Part shown: in pieces, positions 1 to 27,717 of the stretch
How positions within the stretch are numbered: the stretch's first letter is position 1
Layout: each line of letters begins with the position of its first letter
DNA from: Candidatus Levybacteria bacterium RIFCSPHIGHO2_01_FULL_36_15b
GTDB lineage: Bacteria; Patescibacteriota; Microgenomatia; Levybacterales; UBA12049
Direction: 5' to 3'
Assembly (NCBI GenBank): GCA_001782045.1
Contig: MFNK01000003.1
Span: 204,719 to 268,718, forward strand
DNA: 64,000 nucleotides
Notes under the pieces: generated by a model
What the model saw: only the letters and a program-made list of their open reading frames with translations
What the model was told of the DNA's origin: nothing
Databases searched by the model: none
Translations under genes and position numbers: made by a program

Positions 1-888
1 TTGCAAATTTATTCTAGAATCAAAAAATGGGTAAATAGGATTACCCGTATTTATGTATGAAAATATAAACCAAGGGAGGGGTATAATGACTGCAGGTAGA
101 GTTAAGGATATAAAATTCACTAGAAAATCTTTAAAACTTTTACTAAAAAAAATAACCAGAAGACAGATAAAAATTAAAATAGATCCAGTCGCCAACAACT
201 TTGCGGATATTGCAAAACCCAATAAGGCACCAGAATATAAAAGCCATTTTTTACTTTTTATCTCATATGCTTTTATAAAAGCCCAAAATCCCATAATTTC
301 AAAAAAGGTTCTTGATAAGTCAGAATATGAAGCCATTGACTCCCAGCCCACTACTAAATTGCTATAAAAAATCAAAGTAGCCAGTAAGCTTAACTCTTGA
401 GAAAAAAACTTTCTTGATATTTTATAAATTGGAAAAAGTATAAGAACTCCAAATGTAAAATGAATAAGCTTAGCAAAAAACTCATCGCCAAAGGATAAAG
501 CAGCTACGTATATCATTTCAGTAAGCTTTGGCATATCTGAATAGTATAAAAGTGATCCTGGAATATGAAAAACTGCATGGTTTATTAAATACAATTTTGG
601 CAAGGTTAAATGGTACCAAAGCGCATCAAATGATATTTCAGGCCCTAATACGCCAACTAAATTTACAACAAACATTACTCCCAAGAGAAAAATGCAAACA
701 GCAGATATTCTATTAATTACTTTTTTGTTGAGAAAAATAACTTGACCTGGTTTAAAAAAGTAGAAAATGAAAAAAACCCAATATAGCAAGCTAACTATAA
801 ATATGTGGTTCTTAAAAAGCTGTCCTGTTATTCCAAGGAAAAAGATAAGATAAGAATATATTCCAATACTTACTGAAAACTTAAACAT
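1..888 (-). CDS. GT-C fold (PMT/ArnT-like, GT39/GT83-type) polytopic membrane glycosyltransferase, N-terminal 296 codons; gene runs off the window start
   Basis: Hand translation of the minus strand: ATG at complement(886..888) preceded by an in-frame TAG, then open with no stop down to position 1. Absent from the ORF track because it is truncated by the window edge. The product MFKFSVSIGIYSYLIFF... is very hydrophobic with many predicted TM helices. Loop motif FGDEFFAKL resembles the DE motif of PMT/ArnT enzymes. The C-terminal stretch ...YINTGNPIYPFF parallels ILTGNPFFPAY in the 13213..15027 paralog. The plus-strand ORFs 53..367 and 528..716 lie inside it and look spurious. Confidence 0.55.
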   Translation of the reverse strand, partial: MFKFSVSIGIYSYLIFFLGITGQLFKNHIFIVSLLYWVFFIFYFFKPGQVIFLNKKVINRISAVCIFLLGVMFVVNLVGVLGPEISFDALWYHLTLPKLYLINHAVFHIPGSLLYYSDMPKLTEMIYVAALSFGDEFFAKLIHFTFGVLILFPIYKISRKFFSQELSLLATLIFYSNLVVGWESMASYSDLSRTFFEIMGFWAFIKAYEIKSKKWLLYSGALLGFAISAKLLATGSILIFICLLVIFFSKSFKDFLVNFISLTLPAVIIPLPWFIFSYINTGNPIYPFFDSRINLQ

Positions 889-964
889 ATGTTTACTCTA
901 CATAAAAGATGAAAGAAGTAAAAATATAATATTAAAAGAACCCAAAAAATAAACGCTAAGGGTA

Positions 965-1720
965 TTATTTTTTTTGCCATAGTAGCCATAGCTTTCCTCT
1001 TACTAAAAATGAGTGAAAACTCATCATTAAAGCAAAAATAAGCCCTTCAATTCCATCAAGAAAACCAAACTTTATTAAATAATTTTTAAAAAATTTTGCA
1101 ATTGGATATATCATTATATCTTGTACTTTTGCTTTTACTTTACGCCCAAAAAGCTCTTGCGCTCTTAAAGAAGAATAATAATTAATATCCAGTAAAAATT
1201 CGTTTATGCTTTGATGTGGATAATGAAGTATTTGTCCATCTAATTCTCCTACTTCCCCATCTACTTGCCACTTCTCATGAACTTTTCCAACCCATGCTCC
1301 TGTTCCTCGCTTAGCAAGCCTTAATAACCTTATGTCTCCCGTTTCGCCGTGATTTAAAAGCTTATCCCACATAACATCAACTCTTTTTATAAAATATCCC
1401 GAAATATTATTTTCTCTATTTATGATTGTCGTATTTAATTCCTCCTTAAGACCAGAAGTTATTCTTTCATCCGCATCTAAAAATAATACCCAATCTTTTG
1501 TAGATTTTGATAATCCAAAGTTTCTTTGATTAGAAAAATTATCACTTAAAACATTTTTATATATTTTTATTTTTTTGTTTCCCAAGGAATTTATCACATC
1601 TATAGTTCTGTCCATAGAATTGTCATCTACGATTATAAGCTCATCCGCCCATACAGCAGTTTCTAAACAATCAATTATATTTTTTTCCTCATTTTTAGTT
1701 AGTATTACTATGCTAAGCAT
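965..1720 (-). CDS. GT2 family glycosyltransferase (small cytoplasmic, WaaE/KdtX-like)
   Basis: N-terminal IVILTKNEE..., then IIVDDNSMDRT and LDADE (DxD-type) motifs typical of the GT2 Rossmann fold. 251 aa. Stop overlaps the upstream gene at 1720. Confidence 0.8.
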   Translation of the reverse strand: MLSIVILTKNEEKNIIDCLETAVWADELIIVDDNSMDRTIDVINSLGNKKIKIYKNVLSDNFSNQRNFGLSKSTKDWVLFLDADERITSGLKEELNTTIINRENNISGYFIKRVDVMWDKLLNHGETGDIRLLRLAKRGTGAWVGKVHEKWQVDGEVGELDGQILHYPHQSINEFLLDINYYSSLRAQELFGRKVKAKVQDIMIYPIAKFFKNYLIKFGFLDGIEGLIFALMMSFHSFLVRGKLWLLWQKK

Positions 1721-3903
1721 TATTTATGTTTTACTATTTTTATTTCACTTGGGGTTTCAGTGATTATGTATATTAAATCTGCATTTTTAGTTACAGATGA
1801 TTTACCTAAATACCATGTTAAATACTGATAATTCATTGTAAAATTTTCAAATTCACTGCCTGGTCCCCTACCCAGAATTGTAAAGGTCTTGCCGTTTGAA
1901 TTTTCTACCATGTATCTTGCGACATTCAGTCTGTCCTGGAAAGTTGGTCCATATCCTCTACTAAAACCGATAAAATAATTATTAGAAATTAAATAGGTAA
2001 TATTTAAGTATCCGACAATAGATAATATTAATACTCCTAGGTAAAACAAATATCTATTTCTTGCAAGATAACTAATAAAAATCGAAACTACTATAACTAC
2101 AGGAACAAATAATGACATTAGATAAGCATTTGATGATGTTTTGTTTAATACTATACTTCCAAGTAGCACTATAAAGATAAGAAGTAGCAATAAAAATTCT
2201 TTTTTTAATTTTTTATGTTTTAATGTTTTCAATAGTAAGAATAAAGTACTTATAGCTACAACTACTGATGCAATTAGATTTGTATGAGGAAAAAAAATAT
2301 TTTGAAATGAAGAATTTAGGAAACTAAATACTTGACTAAACGAGTTTGTCATATTAATACTCAAGCTTGCTGACTTTAAAATTTTGTATAAAATCCACCC
2401 TAAAAATACAATGGTTTGTGGGAAACCATTCTTAAAATCGTAAATGATAATCGGAAGCATTGGAATAATAAAAGCGATTAGCGAAAATAATAAAATTTTA
2501 GCGTTGTGCAAGCCCGAATACCAATCCTTTTTCTTTACAAATCCATAAACAAATACTCCTATAAACACCACAGATAACACTATTGTTTGCAATTCAAAAT
2601 TATAGAGCATAACCAAAGAGAAAATTATTAAGGGAAAATAAAATTTTTTATTGTTAACCCACCTAAAAAGGCTATAAATAAAAAGTGCTACAAAAAATGG
2701 TATAAGCGAAGTGTGATATGCGGCTCTTGCGCTTAAAATTATTGCAGGAGAAAAAACGTATATAAGGGATGCAATCAATGCCGCTTCCTTAGTAAAAAAT
2801 TGCTTTACTAGTTTATATATCAAAATTAATGTAAAAATATCAAAAACCGCCGTAAAAACGTACGGTGCAATTGGATTAAATTTATAAATATAAAAGACAA
2901 AAGCAACTAAATAAGTCCAAATAGGTCCTTGATGAAGCCATAAGTGACTGGAAGTAATTCCAACTAGGGGAAGGCTTCCTGTTAAAAGAGCATCCCTTGC
3001 GGATAGATAAAACCACCCAATGTCTCCGTAGTAGGGAATATACTCATCGATTTTATACAAACGTATGGTGGTAGCAACAGCAATAGCTGACAATAACACC
3101 AAGCTATTGAAGTTAATATTAAGAAAAATCTCAATAATTAATGCTTTTATTATTCCAAAATGTTTTCTAAAATAATAAAATCTGCTTTTTTTAAATATAT
3201 CGTCCTTATTGTCTAGAAGCTTTGTGGTTGTACCCCACTTATGAATTAACTTAGAGGATGGATCAATAAAAATTTTATATCCAGCACCTCTTACTCGCTT
3301 GCACAAATCAAATTCCTCAAAATATAAAAAATAATTTTCGTCGAAACCACCTATTTTTTCAAAAACATTTTTTTTAATCAAAAAAGCCGAACCAGGAATA
3401 TTATCTACCTGCTTAGGCTTATTGTTCCATTTTTTTATCCAAAAGTTTTTAGAAATTGGATTTTTATTCCAAAGTTTATCAATAAATGAAAATTTAAATA
3501 TTGCCAATAATGGGGTTAATTCCCTAGCTCCTTGTTCCATAATTTTATTACTTGGGGTGTACAAAAGTGGTGCAATTATACCTATTTGCTTTTCTTTATT
3601 TAGTTTTTTAGCTAGCCTACCAAGTATATCTTCTGTAAAGATTGTATCGGGATTTAAAACAAATATATACTCACCACTAGCGTGTTTTACTCCTAAATTA
3701 ATCCCTGCTCCATATCCAATATTTCTTTTAGAAGAAATATATTCTAGATTTTTAAATTTACTTAATCTGTGTTTAATTTTCTGGTTTTCACTATTGTCAA
3801 CTATTATTACTTCAAAGTTTTCTTTTGTATTTTGATAAAGTGAAGATAGACACTCAATAAGATCTTTTTCATTTCGATAATGTACAATAATTATTGAAAT
3901 CAT
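1720..3903 (-). CDS. Fusion protein: N-terminal GT2 (WbbL/rhamnosyltransferase-like) plus C-terminal polytopic GT-C-like membrane domain
   Basis: Residues 1-250: IIIVHYRN, VIIVDNSEN, NIGYGAGIN, VLNPDT, YFLYFEEFDLC, the classic GT2 signature. Residues 250-727: about 12 hydrophobic segments with IDEYIPYYGDIGWFYLSARD and HQGPIWTY motifs shared with the 24493..26010 paralog. Confidence 0.75.
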   Translation of the reverse strand: MISIIIVHYRNEKDLIECLSSLYQNTKENFEVIIVDNSENQKIKHRLSKFKNLEYISSKRNIGYGAGINLGVKHASGEYIFVLNPDTIFTEDILGRLAKKLNKEKQIGIIAPLLYTPSNKIMEQGARELTPLLAIFKFSFIDKLWNKNPISKNFWIKKWNNKPKQVDNIPGSAFLIKKNVFEKIGGFDENYFLYFEEFDLCKRVRGAGYKIFIDPSSKLIHKWGTTTKLLDNKDDIFKKSRFYYFRKHFGIIKALIIEIFLNINFNSLVLLSAIAVATTIRLYKIDEYIPYYGDIGWFYLSARDALLTGSLPLVGITSSHLWLHQGPIWTYLVAFVFYIYKFNPIAPYVFTAVFDIFTLILIYKLVKQFFTKEAALIASLIYVFSPAIILSARAAYHTSLIPFFVALFIYSLFRWVNNKKFYFPLIIFSLVMLYNFELQTIVLSVVFIGVFVYGFVKKKDWYSGLHNAKILLFSLIAFIIPMLPIIIYDFKNGFPQTIVFLGWILYKILKSASLSINMTNSFSQVFSFLNSSFQNIFFPHTNLIASVVVAISTLFLLLKTLKHKKLKKEFLLLLLIFIVLLGSIVLNKTSSNAYLMSLFVPVVIVVSIFISYLARNRYLFYLGVLILSIVGYLNITYLISNNYFIGFSRGYGPTFQDRLNVARYMVENSNGKTFTILGRGPGSEFENFTMNYQYLTWYLGKSSVTKNADLIYIITETPSEIKIVKHK

Positions 3904-5000
3904 TTTAATGTTTTAAGGCTATTTTCTATTTCATTAGAGAAAGCTTTTGATTTTAGTTCCCAATCCCAATTTAATACGACATGCTCTCTTGCAGCAGCCG
4001 ATATATTTCTAATTGTAGTTGGTCTTCTTAATAAATACGATATTTTATTAGCAAGAATGCTACTATTTCTTTTAATTAAAATTCCCGTCTTTCCATTTAT
4101 AATAGTTTCCTTATATCCCCCTTCGTTTACTGCAATTACTACAACTCCACAGGACATTGCTTCCAAAGCTACTAAACCAAAGGGTTCGTTAACAGCAAAA
4201 CAAATAACGATTCTTGACTTAAGATACAGATCTTTTATATCATTGGTTGTTAACCACTGATCTTCGTTTAAAACTGTTTTAACCCTTAATTTATATTTAA
4301 TTTTTTTAGTCGCACTTTTAAAAAATTCATAACCGTCTATTGGGTGTTTAGAGCCAATAAAGAGAACATCTATTGTTTTGTTAACGTCCTTAGAGGGTTT
4401 AAAAAATTTAGTATCTACGCCCAAGTAAACAACCCTACTTTCTGTCCCATATGTTTTCTTTACTACTTTACTTGCAAATTGAGAATTAACATAAATTTCT
4501 GATGCACTTGAAAAGTTTTTCTTATCTATCATCCTTCTAAAAAACCTATTTAATTTCTCATATAGTGCCTTAATGGAAAAACCCTCTACTGCTAGTATCG
4601 GCTCGTAAATAATTCTATAATTTGGATCATGACAATAAAAGATACTAAATAAATTCAAATATCGAAGTACGTAGGGTGCTTCTGTGTATTCTGATCCATT
4701 AACTAAAACCGCGTCATAATGTTTTGAATTTATATCTAATGCAATTTTTCTATGTAATTTTTTTAGCTTTATAAGTTCTAAGGAATCCTTGTAAAGTCTT
4801 GTTTTCCAGTCACCTCCGCTCCATGCCTTAGCAGAAAAATTATAAAAGTAAATATGTTTAAATGGTAAATCGTCTTCTTTTTGTGACCCCGTGTAATAAA
4901 AATCAATCAAGTGTCCTAGTTTAATTAATTCTCTGGACAATGCATACACTGCATTCCTAGCTCCGCCGGGGGGTAATTCATGAAAAACTGCTATTCTCAT
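3900..5000 (-). CDS. GT4 family glycosyltransferase (retaining, GT-B fold)
   Basis: C-terminal EPFGLVALEAMSCGVVVIAVNEGG motif (E-x7-E region) typical of Glycos_transf_1. 366 aa. 4-nt overlap with neighbours. Confidence 0.85.
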   Translation of the reverse strand: MRIAVFHELPPGGARNAVYALSRELIKLGHLIDFYYTGSQKEDDLPFKHIYFYNFSAKAWSGGDWKTRLYKDSLELIKLKKLHRKIALDINSKHYDAVLVNGSEYTEAPYVLRYLNLFSIFYCHDPNYRIIYEPILAVEGFSIKALYEKLNRFFRRMIDKKNFSSASEIYVNSQFASKVVKKTYGTESRVVYLGVDTKFFKPSKDVNKTIDVLFIGSKHPIDGYEFFKSATKKIKYKLRVKTVLNEDQWLTTNDIKDLYLKSRIVICFAVNEPFGLVALEAMSCGVVVIAVNEGGYKETIINGKTGILIKRNSSILANKISYLLRRPTTIRNISAAAREHVVLNWDWELKSKAFSNEIENSLKTLK

Positions 5001-5836
5001 TTTGTATTTTTTAACACAGAGAAAAAATCACTTCCAAACCAGATGTTTAAAGGAAACAATCTTGATAAAGGATCTAAAAACACAATTAAATTGAATAATA
5101 AATCTTTCATGCTTTGTCTTTCTTTCCTCACAGTAATGTTCGTACTCTTAATGAATCCTTTGAAATTATATTTCTGAAAAAGTTTATATAATGAATAATA
5201 GGTAGGTTCGTTAATGTGCATTTTACTATGCGAATCCGCCCGTAACTTACTTGGCATTGCGATATTAGGATATTTGTTTCTGGAAAAATTATTCCAAAGA
5301 TTCACAATAAGTGTTGACATGGGATAACAATAATATTTGTATATATAATCATTAAATAGCCTATTAGGAGCAGTGTGTATAATTAGACTTCCTTGCGGCC
5401 TTAAGACTCTTTTTATCTCTTTAAAAACCAGCTCCAGCTCTTCTTCATATAGATGCTCTACGACATCAGTTAAAATTACGGTTGAAAAAAACGAACTTGG
5501 GAAAAGTAATTTCTTCGCGTCCATTTGTATGAAGCTCATGCGCTTCTTAATGGAAGCGTCTTTTTTTTCTTTAAGTAAATTTGCCAATTGAATTGCATCT
5601 TTTGCGTAATCTATTCCGTATGACTTACCCCCCAGTTTTGCACAGTAATATACTAACTCTCCCCTGCCGCAACCTATATCAAGTATCTTTAAGTTCTTAT
5701 GAATCTTTAGATAAGGGACAATTTCCTTAAACCTTGGTTCCAATAATTCGCCTAGTGTATACTTAAACTCCTGGTGTCCAGTACAATCAGTTAAGTAATA
5801 ATCTTTGGTATAAATTTTAGGATCAACTCTTCTCAT
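4997..5836 (-). CDS. Class I SAM-dependent methyltransferase
   Basis: Motif I LDIGCGRGELVYYCAKLGG, plus an acidic residue after beta-2 (GIDYAKD) and a post-I VILTDVVEHL pattern. Sits inside the glycan locus, so probably a sugar or lipid O-methyltransferase. Confidence 0.8.
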   Translation of the reverse strand: MRRVDPKIYTKDYYLTDCTGHQEFKYTLGELLEPRFKEIVPYLKIHKNLKILDIGCGRGELVYYCAKLGGKSYGIDYAKDAIQLANLLKEKKDASIKKRMSFIQMDAKKLLFPSSFFSTVILTDVVEHLYEEELELVFKEIKRVLRPQGSLIIHTAPNRLFNDYIYKYYCYPMSTLIVNLWNNFSRNKYPNIAMPSKLRADSHSKMHINEPTYYSLYKLFQKYNFKGFIKSTNITVRKERQSMKDLLFNLIVFLDPLSRLFPLNIWFGSDFFSVLKNTK

Positions 5837-5841
5837 TTATG

Positions 5842-7059
5842 TTATTTTAGTGTTTTATAGGTAAAGTAGAACATAAACGGTAGAGCAGCTAAAGTACCAA
5901 TTAATGCAGAAATACCCGCGCCGATAATACCATAAGCCTGAACCAAAGGGACTAATGTTACCGCCAAACCAAAAATACTAACTAAGGTAACGACACTAAC
6001 TTCTTTTTGCTTTCCTACTGAAAGAAGCAAAGATGAGGAAGAACCAGATATTGCCCTAATTACTCCGAATACCACGAGTATCTTTAACACATTAACCATT
6101 CCAAGCCATTTATCACCAAGTACAAGGATTACTATTCTATCGGTATAAATAAAAAGCACAAGACCAAAGGATATTGAAACTACGCTTACTAATAAAAGAC
6201 TTTTTAAAAAAGCTTTTGTAAGTCTTTGTTTATCTTCGGAAATTAATGAATATACTGGAAAAGTTACTTTGGATACTACGTCAGACACATCAGTAATGGG
6301 CAACCGGGAAATATTGTATGCCATTACGTATAATCCAAGATTTACAGTGCCTAACATTCTTCCTACTATTATATTATCTAAATTGTGGTATAAATAACTG
6401 AATATACCACTTAGAGTTATCCACTTACCACGATTGATAACAAGAAAAAGTTTTTCTTTTTCTAGCCTTATCTTTGGGATTGGCTTTACTAATATAAAAG
6501 AAAGAATAACCTCAAGCAGCGCACCACAAATAAGTCCTACTGCAAGACTTAAAACAGATTTTGTGTAAAAAGCTAATGTAATCGCAATTAAAGAATCCAT
6601 TAAAAGAATAGAAATTCTAAACCACAGTTCTTTATCAAACCTAAGTTCTTTTTGAAACTTTATAATCGATGGGTTAATAAATCCCCTAATCAGTGGAACT
6701 AAGCTAAATAGCAACAGCAAGCCAAATGCATCAGGTGCATTAAAAAATTGCGAAACATAAGAAGAAGTAAGAAGCATTAAAGCAAAAATAATTACTCCTC
6801 TTAAAATCGACAATAACCATGCTGTATCGATATATTTGTTTGTACTCTCTTTGTTTTGTATAAGAAAAACATTGATTCCGGTTTCTGTCAATATCTCAGC
6901 AAAAGACAAAACCAAGATTCCAATCCCATAAATTCCAAATTGTGAGGGCAAGAGTATTCTAGCCAACAAGATAGTTCTAGCTATCGAAATAAATCTTGTA
7001 GAAGCGGTTAAAATCCAACTCCACGAAATGCCTTTGATTGCATCGCCTGTGTAGCCCAT
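5842..7059 (-). CDS. MOP-superfamily oligosaccharide flippase (Wzx-like polysaccharide biosynthesis protein)
   Basis: 405 aa, about 12 predicted TM helices. Resembles the PF01943-type polysaccharide biosynthesis protein family from memory. Sits in the GT cluster. Confidence 0.7.
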   Translation of the reverse strand: MGYTGDAIKGISWSWILTASTRFISIARTILLARILLPSQFGIYGIGILVLSFAEILTETGINVFLIQNKESTNKYIDTAWLLSILRGVIIFALMLLTSSYVSQFFNAPDAFGLLLLFSLVPLIRGFINPSIIKFQKELRFDKELWFRISILLMDSLIAITLAFYTKSVLSLAVGLICGALLEVILSFILVKPIPKIRLEKEKLFLVINRGKWITLSGIFSYLYHNLDNIIVGRMLGTVNLGLYVMAYNISRLPITDVSDVVSKVTFPVYSLISEDKQRLTKAFLKSLLLVSVVSISFGLVLFIYTDRIVILVLGDKWLGMVNVLKILVVFGVIRAISGSSSSLLLSVGKQKEVSVVTLVSIFGLAVTLVPLVQAYGIIGAGISALIGTLAALPFMFYFTYKTLK

Positions 7060-7090
7060 ATATGGCTATTTAAGTATAGCAGATACGGTA

Positions 7091-7120
7091 TTGAATTCTA
7101 AACAGTTTCTCGGCTATAAT
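7091..7120 (+). promoter_or_regulatory. Sigma70-like promoter for the 7138..8349 gene (TTGAAT-N18-TATAAT)
   Basis: TTGAAT at 7091..7096 and TATAAT at 7115..7120 in the 78-bp divergent intergenic region, 18 nt upstream of the ATG at 7138. Confidence 0.4.
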
Positions 7121-7137
7121 ATTACTCTGCCGAAATA

Positions 7138-8349
7138 ATGAAAATAAAAAAATGTAGATCTTGCAGCTTTAAAGATTTAGTTTTGATTTTATCCCTTGGC
7201 AAGCAATACCTCTCAGACTTTGTTAAATCAAATAAGAAACCGAAAGCATTTCCATTAAATATTGTTCTATGTAAAAATTGCAAACTGGTGCAGTTAGACT
7301 ATACTTCCCCCTCAAAATATTTATATACAGAACGCTATGGATACAAATCCGGTATTAATCAAACAATGAAAGACGAGTTAAGTAACATCGTAAAAAAATC
7401 GCTTGAGAAAATAAAAAAAAGTAAAAAAGAGCTTATCGCAATAGATATTGGAGCTAATGATGGAACACTTTTAAGCTATTATCCCAAAGAAGTTTATAGA
7501 GTAGCAGTTGAGCCGATCAAAAAGTTTGCAAATGAATCTAAGAAATATTCAAATAAAGTAGTCAATGATTTTTTTAACTTTAAATCGTTTGATAAAAACG
7601 TCAAAAAGAAGGCAGATATTATAACCGTTATATCTTGCTTTTATGATATGGAGAACCCAAATAAATTTATTGAAGACATGAAAAAAATAATGAACGAGGA
7701 TGCCGTAGTTGTAATACAACAGAATTATCTTGTTGAAATGTTGAATAAAAACGCTTTTGATAACATAGTACACGAGCATCTTGAATATTATTCCCTTTTA
7801 TCACTTAATAATTTACTGCAAAAGCATGGTTTGGAGGTATTTGATGTAGAAATAAGAGAATTAAACGGCGGTAGCTTTAGAACCTTCATTGCAAACAAAG
7901 GCCAAAGAAAAATTACCAAACGTGTGTTAAAAATGCAACAAACTGAAAAGAGAATGAAACTGGACAATAAGGATACATATGTTAAATTTGCAAAAAGAAT
8001 AAAAGAGAACAAAATAAAAGTTTTAAGTACAATACGTAAAATAGTTAAGGATAAAAAGAGAATTTATTTATACGGCGCTTCAACGCGCGGAAATACTCTT
8101 TTACAGTATTTTGAACTAAGTAAAAATCTTATTTCCTATGCTGTTGAGAGAAATCCAGAAAAATGGGGTAAGAAGATTGCTTCTGTAGGAATACCTATAA
8201 TATCTGAAGAGCAGGCAAGGAAAGACAATCCAGAATATATGTTAGTATTGCCATGGTTTTTTAAAAAAGAGTTTCTAAAAAGAGAAGCAAATTATTTAAA
8301 AACCGGGGGACATTTTATATTCCCTCTTCCAAAACTCGACGTTATTTAG
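7138..8349 (+). CDS. SAM-dependent C-methyltransferase family protein (zinc-ribbon plus methyltransferase plus C-MT C-terminal domain; NDP-hexose C-methyltransferase TylCIII-like)
   Basis: N-terminal CRSC...LGKQYLSDF...CKNCKLVQLD zinc-ribbon pattern as in TylC3-type enzymes. Glycine-rich SAM motif AIDIGANDGTLL. 403 aa. Confidence 0.7.
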   Translation: MKIKKCRSCSFKDLVLILSLGKQYLSDFVKSNKKPKAFPLNIVLCKNCKLVQLDYTSPSKYLYTERYGYKSGINQTMKDELSNIVKKSLEKIKKSKKELIAIDIGANDGTLLSYYPKEVYRVAVEPIKKFANESKKYSNKVVNDFFNFKSFDKNVKKKADIITVISCFYDMENPNKFIEDMKKIMNEDAVVVIQQNYLVEMLNKNAFDNIVHEHLEYYSLLSLNNLLQKHGLEVFDVEIRELNGGSFRTFIANKGQRKITKRVLKMQQTEKRMKLDNKDTYVKFAKRIKENKIKVLSTIRKIVKDKKRIYLYGASTRGNTLLQYFELSKNLISYAVERNPEKWGKKIASVGIPIISEEQARKDNPEYMLVLPWFFKKEFLKREANYLKTGGHFIFPLPKLDVI

Positions 8350-16748: not shown

Positions 16749-17782
16749 ATATTTGTAATTCTTTCCCAAGATTTAGTTTTCACCCAATTATATGCTGGCG
16801 CAGTGCTTTGCTGATTATGCTCCAAATATGACTTTATGGCTTCAGCTATTTTTCCTGAATCGTTACTAATTGCAATATACCCTGCGAAAGGAGTCATTTC
16901 TAAATAGTCTTTTTTTATTTCATTATTATAGTGTGCAAATACAGGTATTCTTGACGCCATAGCCTCAAGAATTCCTAAATATCTTGAAACAAGGGCAAAT
17001 CCGTAATTAAGAAATAATGAATCCGTATCTTGAACAAACCCTTTAAAAAATACTTTCAGTTTATGTTTTTTTGCATATTTTATTGCCTCTTCCCTTAAGG
17101 TACCGTCTCCGTAAATATCAAGCTCTGTCGCTACATTTTTATCCTTTAATAACTTAAATGCTTTTAAATACTCTAGGATACCAGTTTCATGCTCAAGCCT
17201 TCCTGTAAATATGCCTTTATACCTATTTACATTCTCTTTTACCTTAGACTCAATTAATTTTTTATCAACTGCACCGTAAATTATAAAATTTGCTTTTGTT
17301 TTATACCACTTTTCTAAAAATTTACCAACACATATATTTCCATTTGATAGAACTTCTGCCACCTTGTGCATCAAGTATGCATTAAAAGATGGTAAATTGT
17401 TGCCTTCGTAGCCATGAAATGTGACAAAATTTTTTTTAAAAGGAAAAATAAATCTAAATGGAAAGTACCAGAAGTAAACGTCATGCGCATGCACTATATC
17501 AGCATTCTTTATTAAATTTATTTTCAATAACAATTCTTTCCAAATTCTAAACTTTTTAAACCAATCGTTTCTACCGATGTCAATGGTTATAACATTAAGG
17601 TTACTATTCTCTGGCTGATTAGCGCTTAAGCTTTGTGATTGATAATTATTACTATAAGATTTTTCAGTTAGAATAGTAACTTTTATTCCCTTCTTTGTCA
17701 ACGCTTCAGATAACTTGTAAATATGCTTCTCTACTCCCCCAATATTAGGAAAAAAGGATCTTGTTAAAAAAACGACGCTCAT
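16709..17782 (-). CDS. GT4 family glycosyltransferase
   Basis: FPNIGGVEKH, IVHAHD, FTGRLEHETGILEYL, DIYGDG, LGILEAMASRIPVFA: GT-B/GT4 pattern. Start abuts the tRNA-Val 3' end. Confidence 0.7.
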   Translation of the reverse strand: MSVVFLTRSFFPNIGGVEKHIYKLSEALTKKGIKVTILTEKSYSNNYQSQSLSANQPENSNLNVITIDIGRNDWFKKFRIWKELLLKINLIKNADIVHAHDVYFWYFPFRFIFPFKKNFVTFHGYEGNNLPSFNAYLMHKVAEVLSNGNICVGKFLEKWYKTKANFIIYGAVDKKLIESKVKENVNRYKGIFTGRLEHETGILEYLKAFKLLKDKNVATELDIYGDGTLREEAIKYAKKHKLKVFFKGFVQDTDSLFLNYGFALVSRYLGILEAMASRIPVFAHYNNEIKKDYLEMTPFAGYIAISNDSGKIAEAIKSYLEHNQQSTAPAYNWVKTKSWERITNIYLDLWNLNDLNK

Positions 17783-17783
17783 G

Positions 17784-17855
17784 TGGACTCGAGAGGATTC
17801 GAACCTCTGACATCTTCAATGTGAATGAAGCGCTCTACCACTGAGCTACGAGTCC
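17784..17855 (-). tRNA. tRNA-Val (anticodon CAC)
   Basis: Minus-strand sequence GGACTCGTAGCTCAGTGGTAGAGCGCTTCATTCACATTGAAGATGTCAGAGGTTCGAATCCTCTCGAGTCCA folds as a canonical cloverleaf: 7-bp acceptor GGACTCG/CGAGTCC, D-arm TAGCTCAGTGGTAGAGC, anticodon stem CTTCA/TGAAG with loop TTCACAT, T-arm AGAGGTTCGAATCCTCT. CCA is not encoded. Confidence 0.8.
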
Positions 17856-19532: not shown

Positions 19533-19591
19533 ATTACTGTGAAAACTGACCCCATTTTATATTGACTTTTCACGAGTGTCAAGAGGTCAAA

Positions 19592-19921: not shown

Positions 19922-19922
19922 T

Positions 19923-23964: not shown

Positions 23965-23973
23965 AATAAATTT

Positions 23974-24441: not shown

Positions 24442-24492
24442 CTGATAAATTATAACAGTAATTATGAGGGTAAAACAACTTAATTTTGAAAC

Positions 24493-26010
24493 TTACCTAA
24501 AATTTAGCCCAAGTTCAATATTTGGGTCGTGTTGAATTTTCTGCTCGTTTGTATTTAAATTAAATTTCTGAACAATATATCCTGATTTAAAATTTTTAAT
24601 TTCAACTGGTGTTATTTTAATATTTGCTTTATTTTCAATCCACCATTGATGTCCCATATATGGATTATCGGGCGGCGGAGGAGATGCAATTACATAAGTC
24701 GTACCTTTTTTTCCATATTCAAATGCATTTGAACGAGCTGCTTTAAATGAGTAAAGCATTGCATAACGCTGCTGGTAAGCATATGCATCAGGGGAATAAA
24801 TAAAGTACCCAAACTCTTTACCTTTTTGCTCTTCAATTACGCTTTTTGCAACTTGTTTTAAGGAAATCCAGGAATCCAGTTTTTTTCCAATAAAATTATT
24901 TTGTGTATCACTTATATAATTTTTTGCAAAATTGAAATTTAAAAATAAAACAACAAAAATAAGTGGAATAAAAATAAATCTTGAAATTCCCTTAGATAAT
25001 GTAACCAGCCAGATTATCGTTAACGGAACAAGTAAGTAAATATAGTGGTAAAGTATTACCCCTTTGTTAAAGTAGGAAAGTGCCATATATCCAAAATAGT
25101 AAAATAATAAAAGAAGCAGTAAGGGTTTTTGTTTTGTATTATTTTTAATATGAATAAATGTAAAAATAATAATTAAAGCAAATATCAAAACGGAAAGAGG
25201 TTCTATGTTTTTTGCAAGTATTTGCATAGAAACAGTGTTATTTATTCTGTCATTTACCCATTCATTTAAGGGAACCAAAAATGCCGAATTTCCTCCTAAA
25301 TTAAAGAGTGCTTTCGCCATGCCAAAGTTATGACGAAAGTCAAATGCTATAAAGTTAGATACGCCAATGGGCAAGATAATAAATGCAATCAAGTGCTTCC
25401 ATAGTTTATTTTTTATAATTAATCCCAAAATCAAAGCTCCCGAGAGCATGATAAAAAGTATTCCAACGCCGATATTTAAGTGGATAAAAGCAGCAAGGAT
25501 CATAATGTGAAAAGCGAGATATTTAGATTTTTTAGTTTGCAGATAACTGTAAATGGTATATAGAAAAGAAGGAATTAAAAAAAAATTTACTTCTGCATGA
25601 AAAACACTATTTATATGAGGAACTAAGTATGTAGAAAGCAAAGACACTCCAAGCAATGACTCTATTGTTCCAAACAATCTTCTTAATATAAAAAAAGTGC
25701 TAAGTAAAAAAATGAAGCCGAGTATCACCCAAAACCATGCAGTTATAACTGGGTTACCCTGTCCAATTAAGTACGCCGGGTAGTTTACATAAGTCCACAA
25801 TGGTCCATGAAAAACGCCTTGAGTATTTGAACGTGGTCCTATTAAAACAATTTTCTTTTGATCAAGTTCCTGTAAAAGAAGAAAATCCCGTCCTATATCA
25901 TTTGTAAGTTTTATTTCACCTTGCAGAGGTAAATATGCTAAAAGATAAAGACTATAAAAAATAAATAGAATTATTATTGCAATAAATACTACTTTAACTT
26001 GCTTCAGCAT
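24493..26010 (-). CDS. GT-C-like polytopic membrane protein (paralog of the C-terminal domain of 1720..3903)
   Basis: 505 aa, more than 10 TM helices. DIGRDFLL and HGPLWTY motifs match YGDIGWFYLSARD and HQGPIWTY in the 1720..3903 fusion. C-terminal soluble domain. Confidence 0.5.
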   Translation of the reverse strand: MLKQVKVVFIAIIILFIFYSLYLLAYLPLQGEIKLTNDIGRDFLLLQELDQKKIVLIGPRSNTQGVFHGPLWTYVNYPAYLIGQGNPVITAWFWVILGFIFLLSTFFILRRLFGTIESLLGVSLLSTYLVPHINSVFHAEVNFFLIPSFLYTIYSYLQTKKSKYLAFHIMILAAFIHLNIGVGILFIMLSGALILGLIIKNKLWKHLIAFIILPIGVSNFIAFDFRHNFGMAKALFNLGGNSAFLVPLNEWVNDRINNTVSMQILAKNIEPLSVLIFALIIIFTFIHIKNNTKQKPLLLLLLFYYFGYMALSYFNKGVILYHYIYLLVPLTIIWLVTLSKGISRFIFIPLIFVVLFLNFNFAKNYISDTQNNFIGKKLDSWISLKQVAKSVIEEQKGKEFGYFIYSPDAYAYQQRYAMLYSFKAARSNAFEYGKKGTTYVIASPPPPDNPYMGHQWWIENKANIKITPVEIKNFKSGYIVQKFNLNTNEQKIQHDPNIELGLNFR

Positions 26011-26055
26011 GTTAATATTATTAGGTAGAAATGAATATAATGCAAGTAATAGGTA

Positions 26056-27717
26056 ATGAATAATCTAAAAAGTTTATCAACAAAAACTGTACTAATTTTA
26101 TTATTTATAATTTTTGTTGCGGGTGCCTTCTTGAGATTTAATAACCTATCAGCAATACCAGCAGGGTTTCAAATGGATGAAGCCTCAAAGGGATATAGCG
26201 CTTATTCGCTACTTAAAACAGCAAGGGATGACAATAATATTTTTTTTCCGTTTAATATAGATATTTTTGGGGATAATAGCCCGGCGGGATATCATTATAG
26301 TGCAATCATTCCTGTTGCAATATTTGGATTAAGTGAATTTGCGGTTCGCTTTCCCGGGGCTATCTTTGGAAGTTTAACAATATTTGCTTTTTACTTTTTA
26401 ACATATTCAATATTTAAAGAGAAAAAACTAGGTTTATTAAGCGCACTGCTTCTTGCAACTTCCCCTTGGCATATAAATATGTCCAGGGCAAGCAGCGAAT
26501 CTTTAGTCGCTTTATTTTTTATAGTTTTGGGGTTTGCATTAATATTTTGGAGTCTTAAGACACAAAAAGTCGTACATGTTTTCTTTGCAACAATAGCTCT
26601 TTCATTAAGTTTTTTCTTTTACCAAACTCCGAGGCTTTTTGTTCCGGTTTTATTTTTTGTACTTTTAATTTTTATTCTTAAAACTTGGAAGTTAAAAATT
26701 GATAAAGATTATAAAAATTCATTAATAATTTCTTTTATTTTTTTAATCTCGCTTGTATTTACTTTGTTTTTTATTATTCCCGGAGGAAATAGAAGATTCA
26801 CGCAAGTAAATATATTTAGTGCCGCCGAAACAAAATTAGTTTTGGATGAACAAATAAAAAACGAGGGCGTAGTCGGAACAAGTCCTATAATTTCTCGCGT
26901 TTACGATAATAAAATTGTTGGCTTTACCCAAACCTATGTTTCCAACTATCTTAATCATTTCTCTTTTGACTATTTGTTTGTCAAAGGGCTTCCCCCTTGG
27001 TATCAAATTCCAAGTATTGGGGTTTTCTATTTAGTTTCTCTGCCATTTTTTTTATTAGGATTAGTTTTGCTTTTAACAAATAAAAATAATCTTTACAAAA
27101 TTCCAATTATATGGCTTGCTATTGGACCAACGGCTGCTGCGATATCAACGGAGGCTAATAATTTGCAAAGATCTTTAGTTATGTATCCAATGTTTGAAAT
27201 ATTTACAGCGTTTGGGTTGATTTATCTGTTTTCAAAAATAAAAAATAGCAAAATTTGGCTGGCTGTTATTGTTTTATTTGCGCTAAATTTTATCTATTTT
27301 TATCATCAGTACTATACACTTTCAAGGGTATTTCAGCCATGGTATAGAAATAATGGTTTTAAAGAGATGATTCAGGCTATAAGTAAAGACTATGAAAAAG
27401 CGGATAAGATAGTTACTACTAAATCCGGTGGAGGTTATCCTCTTTTCCAGTTTTATATTAAATATGACCCTGTAAAATATCAAAGTGAAGGTTCTCCAAA
27501 AGATAAAAATTATAAAGGCTTTGGCAAATTTTTCTTTACTCCAGATAATTGCCCGTTTATTTCTAAAGACCCATTAATTCCAAGAAATGGGAAATTAATA
27601 TTTGTAGAAGACGGAAGCTGTAAAGAAACAAAAGCGCTAGAAGGCAAAATATTTAAATATATTTTAAGAGTGGACGGAACTAAGGCTTTTAGAATTGTAT
27701 ATTTAGATAGTTTCTAA
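26056..27717 (+). CDS. ArnT/PMT-like GT-C membrane glycosyltransferase
   Basis: 553 aa, polytopic. First extracytoplasmic loop FQMDEASKGYSAYSL matches the DE-x7-A motif of ArnT/PMT (GT83/GT39) enzymes. Confidence 0.65.
   Translation: MNNLKSLSTKTVLILLFIIFVAGAFLRFNNLSAIPAGFQMDEASKGYSAYSLLKTARDDNNIFFPFNIDIFGDNSPAGYHYSAIIPVAIFGLSEFAVRFPGAIFGSLTIFAFYFLTYSIFKEKKLGLLSALLLATSPWHINMSRASSESLVALFFIVLGFALIFWSLKTQKVVHVFFATIALSLSFFFYQTPRLFVPVLFFVLLIFILKTWKLKIDKDYKNSLIISFIFLISLVFTLFFIIPGGNRRFTQVNIFSAAETKLVLDEQIKNEGVVGTSPIISRVYDNKIVGFTQTYVSNYLNHFSFDYLFVKGLPPWYQIPSIGVFYLVSLPFFLLGLVLLLTNKNNLYKIPIIWLAIGPTAAAISTEANNLQRSLVMYPMFEIFTAFGLIYLFSKIKNSKIWLAVIVLFALNFIYFYHQYYTLSRVFQPWYRNNGFKEMIQAISKDYEKADKIVTTKSGGGYPLFQFYIKYDPVKYQSEGSPKDKNYKGFGKFFFTPDNCPFISKDPLIPRNGKLIFVEDGSCKETKALEGKIFKYILRVDGTKAFRIVYLDSF

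What the first reader, a model, noticed from the sequence alone, without database searches (positions are those of the whole stretch)
1..27717. Expansion of paralogous GT-C (PMT/ArnT-like) membrane glycosyltransferases
At least nine GT-C-like modules lie in the first 28 kb: the 1..888 partial gene, the C-terminal halves of the three fusions, 13213..15027, 15027..16748, 24493..26010 and 26056..27717. Two more lie at 54299..58893. Several share short signature strings (GNPFFPAYN / GNPIYPFF; HGPLWTY / HQGPIWTY), which indicates lineage-specific duplication. Such density implies extensive and probably heterogeneous glycosylation of envelope proteins or lipids in an organism that otherwise appears to have a streamlined genome.
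Basis: partly seen in the sequence, partly recalled or inferred. Interest (0 to 1): 0.5.

Follow-up and report, generated by a model that had tools for sequence, protein, structure and literature searches.

The report
Conserved GT-C glycosyltransferase arrays in Levybacteria
A small-genome, uncultured bacterium (Candidatus Levybacteria) devotes about a quarter of this 64-kb stretch to ten membrane sugar-transferases of the GT-C type; they are real, but they are ten old, separately conserved gene families sitting in two cell-envelope sugar-polymer gene clusters, not recent copies of one another.

Summary

- **Not recent duplicates.** In-genome paralogues share at most 30% identity. Each has orthologues at about 30-98% identity in other Levybacteria, in conserved synteny where neighbourhoods could be compared.
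- **At least five GT-C subfamilies:** PMT-like, PMT_2-like, LIC_10190/LA_3751-like, YfhO/PTPS_related, and one without a Pfam model.
- **Not ArnT.**

The genes lie in two conserved Wzx/Wzy-type envelope-glycan loci, plus a pair next to ftsZ.

Notable architectures:
- Three GT2::GT-C fusions. One joins a dolichol-P-mannose-synthase/ArnC-type donor synthase to a PMT-like transferase.
- A 1054-aa WaaL-like::GT-C fusion that is highly conserved and has no Pfam annotation.

Most likely mechanism (inferred): polyprenyl-phosphate sugars made in the cytoplasm are used outside the membrane to decorate a cell-wall glycopolymer and/or envelope proteins. These are new members and variants of known kinds; interest is moderate.

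The parts
1..888 (-). A: N-terminal 296 aa of a 523-aa GT-C protein (PMT_2 / LIC_10190-like). The gene runs off the left edge of the window.
   Evidence: PMT_2 30.4 bits against a cut-off of 26.1. LIC_10190 family 6e-8. Full length of 523 aa in the parent contig, followed there by a Wzy_C gene. Orthologues at 41-55% identity. Conserved P83-E84..D88 after TM 63-81.
965..1720 (-). Stand-alone GT2 glycosyltransferase (gt2a), a conserved member of locus 1.
   Evidence: Glycos_transf_2 7e-20. Orthologues at 46-62% identity in 21 loci, usually next to A and B.
3154..3903 (-). B, N-terminal GT2 domain (generic GT-A type, rhamnosyltransferase/HpsN-like), predicted cytoplasmic.
   Evidence: Glycos_transf_2 1e-23. 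TIGR01556 2.7e-20. PDB hits are generic GT2 enzymes. Acidic residues D36, D86, D188 and E196-E197-D199 are conserved.
1720..3141 (-). B, C-terminal GT-C module (PMT_2).
   Evidence: PMT_2 32 bits at aa 325-480. Conserved D294/D304 after TM 259-277. Most orthologues keep the fusion, at 723-767 aa.
3900..7059 (-). GT4 glycosyltransferase (3900-5000), SAM methyltransferase (4997-5836) and Wzx/MOP flippase (5842-7059) of locus 1.
   Evidence: Pfam. MOP flippase NF007773 1e-54. Syntenic orthologues.
7138..8349 (+). Sugar C-methyltransferase-type protein (Methyltransf_13/23/14 domains), the most conserved member of locus 1.
   Evidence: Methyltransf_14 2.6e-46. Orthologues at 57-70% identity next to C.
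9881..10600 (-). C, N-terminal GT2 domain of the polyprenyl-phosphate-sugar synthase type (DPMS/ArnC/PpgS/AglJ-like).
   Evidence: PDB 5mlz dolichol-P-mannose synthase 2e-19; ArnC 2e-9. NCBIfam ArnC, PgfS, PpgS and AglJ all hit. D39-D40 and D94-x-D96 are invariant.
8342..9868 (-). C, C-terminal GT-C module (PMT, GT39-like).
   Evidence: PF02366 59.3 bits and PMT_2 32 bits. W272-D273-E274 invariant directly after TM 247-265. Fused orthologues at 43-70% identity, stand-alone GT-C orthologues at 42-48%, and GT4::GT-C variants also exist.
12345..13205 (-). D, N-terminal GT2 domain (Glyco_tranf_2_3 type) plus two TM helices. The likely true start is 13205 (871 aa), not the TTG at 13253.
   Evidence: Glycos_transf_2 4e-19, Glyco_tranf_2_3 and Glyco_trans_2_3. 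EpsD, MftF and PgaC-like. The public gene call is 871 aa.
10590..12206 (-). D, C-terminal GT-C module.
   Evidence: PMT_2 at 20 bits, below threshold. hhalign to the A, B and C profiles at 96-99%. D388-E389 invariant after TM 358-376. Orthologues at 41-53% identity and 853-864 aa.
13213..15027 (+). E: GT-C protein, the closest paralogue of A.
   Evidence: BLASTP to A 30%, 8e-17. hhalign 99.9%. LIC_10190 and LA_3751 families hit weakly. Orthologues hit PMT_2 weakly. Conserved E160/E163/D164 after TM 140-158.
15027..16748 (+). F: GT-C protein of the YfhO/PTPS_related type. Its start overlaps the stop of E.
   Evidence: PTPS_related 25.5 bits in the window protein. Four orthologues score 27.8-56.8 bits, above the cut-off, and one hits YfhO at 41.7 bits. 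Conserved E58/D61 after TM 34-52.
16709..17855 (-). GT4 glycosyltransferase (16709-17782) and tRNA-Val (17783-17855), marking the right-hand end of locus 1.
   Evidence: Pfam. ARAGORN.
24493..26010 (-). G: GT-C protein without a Pfam family, related to the GT-C half of B.
26056..27717 (+). H: GT-C protein (PMT/PMT_2), divergently transcribed from G and lying near ftsZ.
   Evidence: PMT_2 32.1 bits and PMT 30.7 bits. The M-D41-E42 motif after TM 11-29 is conserved in relatives at 71% and 33% identity.
46421..54244 (-). Locus 2, initiation and cytoplasmic assembly genes: DUF4012 protein, a 217-aa unknown, a WbaP-type phosphoglycosyl transferase (49089-49745), a mannose-1-P guanylyltransferase-like protein, and three GT4 enzymes.
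   Evidence: Pfam. EPS_sugtrans/WbaP 6e-78. Syntenic orthologues at 45-75% identity.
54299..55732 (-). I: GT-C protein (PMT_2). Its start overlaps the stop of J by 4 nt.
   Evidence: PMT_2 29.9 bits. Orthologues at 51-53% identity, always directly downstream of J. The WRQADTS motif after TM1 is conserved.
55729..57237 (-). J, C-terminal module (aa 553-1054): a GT-C-fold module with no Pfam family.
57250..58893 (-). J, N-terminal module (aa 1-548): O-antigen ligase/polymerase-like (WaaL/Wzy_C), with a beta-rich extracytoplasmic insert at aa 288-422.
58898..63980 (-). Locus 2, remainder inside the window: WcaF-like acetyltransferase, a GT4, unknown membrane protein K (60598-62472), a 189-aa GT4 N-domain fragment, and a GtrB/ArnC/PgfS-type polyprenyl-P-sugar synthase (63045-63980).
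   Evidence: Pfam. NF007986 ArnC 8e-54 and PgfS 6.5e-41, full length, with two C-terminal TM helices. Orthologues at 52-65% identity.

Best explanation
The window comes from a Candidatus Levybacteria genome (CPR/Microgenomates). It carries two conserved envelope-glycan biosynthesis loci and one extra gene pair:
- **Locus 1:** from beyond the left edge to 17855.
- **Locus 2:** from 46421 to beyond the right edge.
- **G/H pair:** between FKBP/IleRS and ftsZ.

Together they encode ten GT-C-fold glycosyltransferase modules. Each belongs to its own old orthologous group, conserved across Levybacteria, and they fall into at least five GT-C subfamilies.

Proposed mechanism:
1. A WbaP-type phosphoglycosyl transferase and soluble GT4/GT2 enzymes build a polyprenyl-diphosphate-linked repeat unit in the cytoplasm. 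This includes the generic GT2 domains fused to B and D.
2. A Wzx/MOP flippase exports it. Wzy/WaaL-like modules (the N-half of J, and the Wzy_C gene just left of the window) polymerise or ligate it.
3. In parallel, DPMS/ArnC-type GT2 enzymes load single sugars onto polyprenyl phosphate. These are the N-domain of C and the stand-alone gene at 63045-63980.
4. After flipping, the GT-C modules transfer those sugars at the outer face of the membrane. Likely acceptors are the growing glycopolymer and, for the PMT-like C and H, possibly Ser/Thr of envelope proteins.
5. The fusions (GT2::GT-C in B, C and D; WaaL-like::GT-C in J) physically couple consecutive steps on the two sides of the membrane.

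Shown: fold and family identity, domain order, topology consistent with a cytoplasmic GT2 and an external catalytic loop, conserved catalytic-type motifs, and orthology (with synteny for loci 1 and 2).

Inferred: donors, acceptors, the order of steps, and the nature of the product.
For: - **Source.** P0001 is 100% identical to C and is named Levybacteria RIFCSPLOWO2_01_FULL_36.
- **GT-C identity.**
- **Topology.** One TM helix (B, C) or three (D) separate the GT2 domain from the conserved acidic loop, which puts that loop on the opposite face of the membrane.
- **Donor synthases.** C's N-domain matches DPMS 5mlz at 2e-19 and ArnC. The gene at 63045-63980 matches ArnC at 8e-54 and PgfS at 6.5e-41.
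- **Orthology and synteny.** 28 genome loci share the same gene set. Locus 2 is syntenic in L036 and L037. G has 336 homologues and J has 1548.
- **Low in-genome identity** among paralogues.
- **Fusion partners are separable.** J's two halves occur as separate proteins elsewhere. C-type GT-C occurs stand-alone and fused to GT4.
- **General model.** It follows the multi-component transmembrane glycosylation systems of Gram-positive bacteria: a GT-A enzyme making C55-P-sugar, a flippase, and a GT-C with 8-13 TM helices and a DxD-like motif in an extracellular loop (PMC8035078; PMC11127046).
Against: - There are no biochemical data for any of these proteins or for any Levybacteria glycan.
- No GtrA-family small flippase is encoded in the window, so how the monophosphate-linked donors are flipped is unknown.
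- The GT2 domains of B and D are generic and could have another role.
- D, E, G and J fail Pfam gathering thresholds, and F just misses its cut-off (25.5 vs 26.4); they rest on profile-profile, orthologue or predicted-fold evidence. Only G and J were modelled.
- Topology comes from a simple hydropathy scan.
- The J model has low-confidence loops.
- Whether loci 1 and 2 make one product or two is not known.
Confidence: 0.8

Rival explanations
1. One reading: a recent burst of gene duplication, specific to this organism, produced a family of near-redundant PMT/ArnT-like enzymes that diversify surface glycosylation.
For: - The shared strings (GNPxxP, HxGPxWTY) are real.
- A~E and B~G are recognisable paralogue pairs.
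- Copy number of C-, B- and F-like genes varies between related genomes. L005 has three F-like genes and L014 has three C-like genes, so duplication does continue in the lineage.
Against: - The best in-genome identity is 30%, and most pairs are undetectable by BLAST.
- Nine of the ten modules have several orthologues at roughly 30-98% identity in other genomes, and loci 1 and 2 keep conserved neighbours. H has one partial relative at 71%.
- The modules fall into different Pfam/NCBIfam families.
Confidence: 0.05
2. Several of the modules are not sugar transferases that use polyprenyl-monophosphate donors. They could be polymerases or ligases acting on diphosphate-linked glycans, scaffolds or flippases for lipid-linked sugars, or catalytically dead paralogues.
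For: - J's N-half is WaaL/Wzy-like, so it would use a diphosphate-linked donor.
- H hits the archaeal 'flippase activity-associated protein Agl23' model weakly.
- No dedicated GtrA flippase was found.
- D, E, G and J fall outside curated family thresholds.
Against: - The acidic loop motifs are invariant or nearly so within each orthologous group. That argues for retained catalysis.
- Two DPMS/ArnC-type donor synthases are encoded alongside.
Confidence: 0.13
3. The ORFs are unrelated polytopic transporters or permeases that only resemble GT-C proteins in being hydrophobic.
For: J's N-terminus weakly hits the 'IctB family putative bicarbonate transporter' model. To my knowledge that family is related to O-antigen ligases.
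Against: - No transporter family appears for any of the ten in Pfam, apart from that weak IctB hit in NCBIfam.
- In fold searches, transporters rank far below GT-C hits, with Foldseek probability of 0.1 or less against about 1.0.
Confidence: 0.01

Closest known systems
Multi-component (three-component) transmembrane glycosylation systems of Gram-positive bacteria and enterobacteria: GtrA/GtrB/GtrC, CsbB/GtcA/YfhO, and GacI/GacK/GacL of group A Streptococcus (PMC8035078; PMC11127046; bioRxiv 10.1101/180810)
   Same: - A GtrB/ArnC/DPMS-type GT2 that would make a polyprenyl-P-sugar (C's N-domain; 63045-63980).
- GT-C transferases with 8-13 TM helices and an acidic motif in an external loop.
- Location inside cell-wall polysaccharide loci.
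- A YfhO-type member (F).
- A Wzx/MOP-type flippase in the locus. To my knowledge GacK is of this type too.
   Different: - Ten GT-C modules rather than one or two.
- No GtrA/GtcA-family flippase in the window.
- The donor synthase and the GT-C are fused in one polypeptide (C), whereas they are separate proteins in the described systems. The two reviews searched do not mention a fusion.
- The organism is a CPR bacterium whose envelope chemistry is unknown.
Actinobacterial Ppm1/Pmt protein O-mannosylation and the mycobacterial GT-C repertoire (Emb, Aft, PimE, Mpt) fed by polyprenyl-P-mannose or polyprenyl-P-arabinose (PMC3485146; PMC12041525; PMC12041299)
   Same: - Many GT-C enzymes in one genome build a complex wall glycopolymer outside the membrane from polyprenyl-P-sugars.
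- A GT2 polyprenyl-P-mannose synthase works with a GT39 PMT-type transferase that has a DE loop motif (C, H).
- The donor synthase can be fused to another membrane protein. To my knowledge M. tuberculosis Ppm1 is fused to an Lnt-like domain; similar GT2+CN_hydrolase proteins appeared as P0114 and P0116.
   Different: - Here the synthase is fused directly to the PMT-type transferase.
- The genome is far smaller, so the GT-C density is much higher.
WaaL O-antigen ligase / Wzy_C family, and the bimodular ligase WadA (GT121 ligase + GT25 domain) (PMC10920833; PDB 7tpj)
   Same: - Like WadA, it is a ligase-type module joined to a second glycosyltransferase, which suggests coupled consecutive steps.
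   Different: - The appended module is a membrane GT-C (about 500 aa), not a soluble GT25.
- Pfam Wzy_C is below threshold (15.9 against 31.7 bits).
- A beta-rich insert of about 135 aa replaces the usual periplasmic loop.
- There is no lipid A-core acceptor in a monoderm-type CPR cell (inference).
ArnC/ArnT lipid A aminoarabinose system (GT2 + GT83)
   Different: The ArnT equivalog model scores 18 bits against a cut-off of 567. No arnA/B/D/E/F genes are in the window. 'ArnT-like' is a fold statement only.

Membership tests
GT-C fold glycosyltransferase superfamily | Polytopic integral membrane protein, typically with 8-13 TM helices | tested here: met
   Hydropathy scan gives these TM counts: A 6 in the 296-aa fragment and 10 at full length; B 10; C at least 6; D 12; E 11; F 10; G 8; H 9; I 9; J 22, spread over its two modules.
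GT-C fold glycosyltransferase superfamily | Conserved acidic (DxD/DD/DE/ExD-like) motif in the first extracytoplasmic loop | tested here: met
   The following residues are invariant or at least 90% conserved within each orthologue alignment: A E84/D88; B D294/D304; C D273-E274; D D388-E389; E E160/E163/D164; F E58/D61; G D38/E48/D50; H D41-E42; I D41; J D590-D591. H and I rest on only 2-3 orthologues.
GT-C fold glycosyltransferase superfamily | Significant match to a curated GT-C family model (PMT, PMT_2, YfhO, PTPS_related) above the gathering score | tested here: inconclusive
   Met for A, B, C, H and I and for orthologues of F. Not met for D (20 bits), E, G and J, nor for the window copy of F (25.5 against 26.4). 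These are linked by hhalign instead: D 96-99%, E 99.9% to A, G 98.2% to B, and J's C-half 87% to D.
GT-C fold glycosyltransferase superfamily | Three-dimensional GT-C fold | tested here: met
   [not shown]
GT-C fold glycosyltransferase superfamily | Uses a lipid-phosphate-linked sugar donor at the outer face of the membrane | not testable with these tools
   The only support is indirect: two DPMS/ArnC-type polyprenyl-P-sugar synthase domains are encoded alongside.
PMT / GT39 protein O-mannosyltransferases (C and H) | Match to PF02366 above the gathering score, and a DE motif in loop 1 | tested here: met
   C scores 59.3 bits and H 30.7 bits against a cut-off of 22.7. D273-E274 is invariant in 24 sequences. 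D41-E42 is conserved in relatives of H.
PMT / GT39 protein O-mannosyltransferases (C and H) | MIR domain in loop 5 and the C-terminal PMT_4TMC domain of eukaryotic PMTs | tested here: not met
   No MIR or PMT_4TMC hit at E up to 0.01. To my knowledge bacterial Pmt enzymes also lack MIR, so this excludes the eukaryotic type only.
PMT / GT39 protein O-mannosyltransferases (C and H) | Transfers mannose from polyprenyl-P-Man to Ser/Thr of secreted proteins | not testable with these tools
   A mannose-1-P guanylyltransferase-like gene (49749-50831) and a DPMS-like domain are compatible with mannose but are not proof.
ArnT / GT83 lipid A Ara4N transferase | Match to the ArnT equivalog model, and an arn operon context | tested here: not met
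   The best score is H at 18.1 bits against a cut-off of 567. No ArnA/B/D/E/F genes are among the 49 ORFs scanned.
YfhO / PTPS_related GT-C (F) | Match to PF09586 or PF10131 above the gathering score | tested here: inconclusive
   The window protein scores 25.5 against 26.4. Orthologues at 35-47% identity score 27.8-56.8 on PTPS_related, and one scores 41.7 on YfhO against a cut-off of 28.5.
O-antigen ligase / polymerase (Wzy_C, WaaL) - J N-terminal module | Match to PF04932 above the gathering score | tested here: not met
   The score is 15.9 bits against 31.7. 24 of 33 homologues hit weakly, with a best E-value of 7.8e-6.
O-antigen ligase / polymerase (Wzy_C, WaaL) - J N-terminal module | WaaL-type 12-TM fold with a large external loop | tested here: met
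   [not shown]
Three-component (GtrA/GtrB/GtrC-type) glycosylation system | GtrB-type polyprenyl-P-sugar synthase together with a GT-C transferase | tested here: met
   C's N-domain and 63045-63980 are the synthases. The ten GT-C modules are the transferases.
Three-component (GtrA/GtrB/GtrC-type) glycosylation system | Small GtrA/GtcA-family flippase encoded with them | tested here: not met
   No PF04138 hit appears in any scanned ORF. The inter-gene gaps hold no small polytopic ORF. Only a Wzx/MOP flippase is present.

The most novel reading that the evidence does not exclude
Levybacteria, and perhaps Microgenomates more widely, build a major and so far uncharacterised envelope glycopolymer, comparable in role to mycobacterial arabinogalactan/LAM or streptococcal rhamnopolysaccharide. 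The machinery would rely on fused 'two-sided' enzymes:
- **DPMS::PMT (C)** would make, possibly flip, and consume its own lipid-linked donor without a GtrA-type flippase.
- **WaaL-like::GT-C (J)** belongs to a family with no Pfam model and would couple ligation or polymerisation to side-chain addition.

The GT-C arrays would then be a defining, probably essential trait of this CPR lineage.
Probability: 0.25. Interest if true: 0.65.

Novelty: new variant of a known kind. Interest (0 to 1): 0.42.

Why it matters
CPR bacteria have tiny genomes and are mostly uncultured, and the chemistry of their cell surface is essentially unknown. A Levybacteria genome spends about a quarter of a 64-kb region on extracytoplasmic glycosyltransferases, and the same genes are conserved in syntenic loci across the lineage. 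That points to a complex, selectively important envelope glycoconjugate, plausibly central to attachment to hosts or particles, phage defence or cell integrity.

The fused enzymes are natural 'Rosetta stone' links. They tell which donor synthase, ligase and GT-C act together, which makes them good targets for heterologous biochemistry and glyco-engineering. Two of the conserved families (G, and the C-half of J) are GT-C folds that Pfam does not capture, so GT-C content in CPR genomes is probably under-counted by routine annotation.

None of this changes the known logic of GT-C glycosylation.

Tried and rejected
- **Transporter hypothesis.** Rejected by HMM and fold searches.
- **Recent duplication.** Rejected by all-vs-all BLASTP compared with orthologue identities and synteny.
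- **ArnT assignment.** Rejected.
- **PDB sequence searches.** J, F and H gave nothing useful. Only the GT2 domains of B, C and D hit solved structures.
- **K (60598-62472) as an overlooked GT-C.** Rejected. It has a signal anchor, an external domain of about 380 aa and 5-6 C-terminal TM helices, and no profile match.
- **Metagenome scan for H.** Only three loci came back, so conservation of the G/H adjacency could not be established. In two other genomes G's neighbours differ.
- **Search for a GtrA-like flippase in the window.** None found.
- **Literature.** Six searches for GT-C, PMT or ArnT expansions or GT2::GT-C fusions in CPR/Patescibacteria/Levybacteria found nothing relevant in the held library. 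This does not prove that nothing is published elsewhere.
- **Not attempted.** A true phylogeny with characterised GT-C enzymes, because pairwise identity (at most 15% to solved structures) is too low for a reliable tree.

Full report
**What the window is.** It is AT-rich (29-37% GC) and almost all genes are on the minus strand. Protein C (8342-10600) is 100% identical to a hypothetical protein of 'Candidatus Levybacteria bacterium RIFCSPLOWO2_01_FULL_36', a CPR/Microgenomates metagenome-assembled genome. Exact copies of window proteins lie on contigs of up to 391 kb. Pfam and NCBIfam scans of 49 ORFs give this map:

| Region | Content |
|---|---|
| up to 17855 | Glycan locus 1 |
| 17880-24441 | Signal peptidase I, ParB, L27, L21, RodA, IleRS, FKBP |
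| 24493-27717 | G/H pair |
| 28185-43938 | dcw cluster: FtsZ, FtsA, MurG, FtsW, MraY, Mur ligases, PBP, MraW, MraZ |
| 44083-46421 | 153-aa unknown ORF, class II aminoacyl-tRNA synthetase, RecO |
| 46421 to right edge | Glycan locus 2 |

**Checking the observation.** I labelled the candidates A (1-888), B (1720-3903), C (8342-10600), D (10590-13253), E (13213-15027), F (15027-16748), G (24493-26010), H (26056-27717), I (54299-55732) and J (55729-58893).
- A, B, C, H and I pass the Pfam PMT_2 gathering score. C and H also pass PMT, PF02366.
- B, C and D each carry an N-terminal GT2 domain (E 1e-19 to 1e-23), so the 'three fusions' are real.
- D's PMT_2 hit is below threshold (20 bits). F just misses PTPS_related (25.5 against 26.4).
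- E, G and J have no Pfam hit.

I resolved these five with related sequences.
- A genome-collection scan with an alignment of C orthologues returned 28 loci, nearly all from Levybacteria MAGs. I extracted orthologue sets for A-F from them.
- Profile-profile comparison links A-E to one another at 72-99.9% probability in the GT-C core. F links to B at 89%.
- Four F orthologues pass PTPS_related, and one passes YfhO.

All ten are polytopic. Each has a conserved acidic motif right after the first TM helix of its GT-C module. That motif is the hallmark cited for GT-C enzymes (PMC8035078).

The only factual slip is the count. The window total is ten, or eleven with J's WaaL-like half. GT-C modules take up 15.1 kb, 23.6% of the window.

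**Are they recent paralogues?** No.
- All-vs-all BLASTP detects only A~E (30%, 8e-17), B~G (28%, 4e-9) and B~D (29%, 9e-5). Every other pair is at noise level.
- Each module has orthologues in other genomes that are as close as, or for most much closer than, its best in-genome paralogue:

| Module | Orthologue identity |
|---|---|
| A | 41-55% |
| B | 32-47% |
| C | 38-70% |
| D | 41-53% |
| E | 29-45% |
| F | 31-49% |
| G | 45-84% |
| I | 51-53% |
| J | 53-98% (best 120 of 1548 hits) |

- For H only three relatives were found: one partial at 71% and two at 33%.
- Locus 1's gene set (A, GT2, B, GT4, methyltransferase, Wzx, C-methyltransferase, C, D, E, F) recurs in about 25 loci. Gene order is rearranged between them. 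L007 has every member.
- Locus 2 is collinear in two further genomes.
- The duplications therefore pre-date the divergence of these species.
- The modules map to different families. C and H are PMT. B, D, G and I are PMT_2-like. A and E match the Leptospira-named LIC_10190/LA_3751 models. F is YfhO/PTPS_related. J's C-half has no Pfam model.
- B and D align over both GT2 and GT-C parts (99%), which suggests an old duplication of an already fused gene.

An expansion at the lineage level is nevertheless real.
- Another Levybacteria genome has DUF2079, PMT_2, YfhO, G, PMT, PMT and PMT_2 genes within 15 kb.
- C-, B- and F-like genes vary from one to three copies per locus.
- Just outside this window lie the rest of A, a Wzy_C gene, and two more 9-TM proteins (692 and 726 aa) that match the F profile at 82-86%.

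**What the loci look like.**
- **Locus 1** is a Wzx/Wzy-type locus.
  - It contains Wzy_C (outside the window), A, GT2, B, GT4, a SAM methyltransferase and a MOP/Wzx flippase (NF007773 1e-54).
  - These are followed by a sugar C-methyltransferase-type protein, then C, D, E, F and a GT4, ending at tRNA-Val.
- **Locus 2** starts with a DUF4012 protein and a WbaP-type phosphoglycosyl transferase (6e-78).
  - A nucleotidyltransferase of the mannose-1-P guanylyltransferase type and three GT4 enzymes follow.
  - Then come I, J, a WcaF-like acetyltransferase, a GT4, the unknown protein K and a 189-aa GT4 N-domain fragment.
  - It ends in the window with a full-length ArnC/PgfS/GtrB-type GT2 with two C-terminal TM helices (8e-54).
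  - It continues beyond the window with the two F-like proteins, a GT4, a GT2 and two epimerase/dehydratase genes.

**The fusions.**
- C's GT2 domain is of the polyprenyl-phosphate-sugar synthase type. It matches Pyrococcus dolichol-P-mannose synthase 5mlz (2e-19) and ArnC structures, and the NCBIfam models ArnC, PgfS, PpgS and AglJ. D39-D40 and D94-x-D96 are invariant.
- One TM helix (247-265) separates that domain from the invariant W-D273-E274 of the PMT module. The synthase should therefore face the cytoplasm and the GT-C loop the outside. This is inferred from hydropathy.
- C thus joins the enzyme that makes the lipid-linked donor to an enzyme of the class that consumes it.
- The same GT-C orthologous group also occurs stand-alone (about 510 aa, 42-48% identity) and fused to GT4 (about 885 aa).
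- The GT2 domains of B and D are generic GT-A enzymes, resembling chondroitin synthase, GalT1 and EpsD. They have one (B) or three (D) TM helices before the acidic loop. They more likely add a sugar to the lipid-linked repeat unit in the cytoplasm.
- J is a WaaL/Wzy-like module (aa 1-548, with a beta-rich insert at 288-422) joined to a GT-C module (aa 553-1054, invariant D590-D591).
- An exhaustive representative search found 8096 relatives of J.
  - Fused forms extend down to 33% identity.
  - Stand-alone N-modules and stand-alone C-modules also occur.
  - Ten stand-alone C-module proteins have no Pfam hit.
- I always follows J directly.

**Mechanism.** The best-supported model is the multi-component transmembrane glycosylation scheme known from Gram-positive wall polymers and O-antigen modification (PMC8035078, PMC11127046).
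1. Cytoplasmic assembly on polyprenyl diphosphate.
2. Wzx flipping.
3. Wzy/WaaL-type polymerisation or ligation.
4. Extracytoplasmic addition of single sugars by GT-C enzymes, from polyprenyl-monophosphate donors made by GtrB/DPMS-type GT2 enzymes.

The PMT-like members (C, H) could instead, or also, O-glycosylate envelope proteins, as Ppm1/Pmt does in Actinobacteria (PMC3485146).

Shown here: families, folds, motifs, domain order, orthology and synteny. Inferred: donors, acceptors, step order, and whether the two loci make one product. A gap in the model is that no GtrA-type flippase is encoded in the window.

**Comparison with known systems, and novelty.** The components are members of known superfamilies, and the logic is known.

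New or unusual points:
- The density and conservation of GT-C genes in a reduced CPR genome.
- The DPMS::PMT fusion, and the generic GT2::GT-C fusions.
- The WaaL-like::GT-C fusion. Its nearest described analogue is the bimodular ligase WadA, GT121+GT25 (PMC10920833).
- Two conserved GT-C families that Pfam does not capture (G, and J's C-half).

The ArnT label fails the family test (18 bits against a cut-off of 567; no arn genes). Six literature searches found no description of this in CPR bacteria, but the library is incomplete. The proteins themselves are already public, annotated as 'hypothetical' or 'glycosyltransferase'.

**Verdict.** I rate it a new variant of a known kind, of moderate interest (0.42).

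Noticed in passing
window 55729-58893 (J), with I at 54299-55732: J is a 1054-aa protein with about 22 TM helices and no curated Pfam hit (only a weak Wzy_C match). It is far better conserved than the other GT-C genes: the best 120 of 1548 homologues are at least 53% identical. It is a WaaL-like::GT-C fusion, and its two halves occur as separate proteins in other genomes. The PMT_2 gene I always follows it, here overlapping by 4 nt.
   Followed up: yes
L041 (GCA_016182235.1, JACOXT010000003.1:345806-361326): In another Levybacteria genome the G orthologue sits in a 15-kb array: DUF2079, GT2, a 535-aa unknown, PMT_2, YfhO (829 aa), G, PMT, PMT, a 428-aa unknown, PMT_2 and a 499-aa unknown. That makes at least seven GT-C genes in a row.
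   Followed up: partly
L034 4658-6838 and 7832-9910 (just right of the window); L032 12392-13576 (just left of it): Two more 9-TM proteins (726 and 692 aa, no Pfam) match the F (YfhO-like) profile at 82-86%. A 394-aa Wzy_C protein follows A. The loci therefore extend beyond both window edges, and the region holds at least 12 GT-C modules in about 95 kb.
   Followed up: partly
window 60598-62472 (K): K is a 624-aa protein with no family: a signal anchor, an extracytoplasmic domain of about 380 aa, and 5-6 C-terminal TM helices. DUF3863 hits only faintly. It lies between the GT4 and the GT4-fragment genes, and is absent from that position in the syntenic loci L036 and L037.
   Followed up: partly
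window 62479-63048: A 189-aa ORF matches only the end of the GT4 N-terminal domain (Glyco_transf_4). It is conserved at 55-57% identity and the same length in L036 and L037. It therefore looks like a real split or half-GT4 subunit rather than a pseudogene.
   Followed up: partly
window 13205-13253: The mechanical ORF for D starts at a TTG at 13253 (887 aa) and overlaps the divergent start of E (13213) by 41 nt. The public gene call is 871 aa, which implies a start at 13205 and no overlap.
   Followed up: partly
window 1-16000 compared with the rest: Locus 1 is more AT-rich (GC 0.29-0.32) than the dcw cluster and locus 2 (0.33-0.37). This is a common feature of surface-glycan loci. I did not analyse it further for horizontal transfer.
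   Followed up: no
loci L004, L007, L013, L017, L019, L020, L022 and L024-L028: Many contigs carry clear orthologues of the Levybacteria locus (40-60% identity, same synteny) but are titled 'uncultured Gammaproteobacteria bacterium' (TPA_asm records). The organism name in these records looks like a placeholder or an error.
   Followed up: no
one search hits P0110, P0113, P0114 and P0116: Other fusion partners of the same DPMS-type GT2 domain exist in public data: GT2+YfhO (979 aa), GT2+GtrA (429 aa), and GT2+CN_hydrolase/Lnt. To my knowledge the last resembles mycobacterial Ppm1. Fusing the donor synthase to a downstream membrane partner appears to be a recurrent theme.
   Followed up: no
window 46421-49084: A DUF4012 protein (655 aa, one TM helix) and a 217-aa single-TM protein with no family sit next to the WbaP-type initiating transferase. 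The DUF4012 gene keeps this position in L036. It may be a chain-length or export component of locus 2.
   Followed up: no
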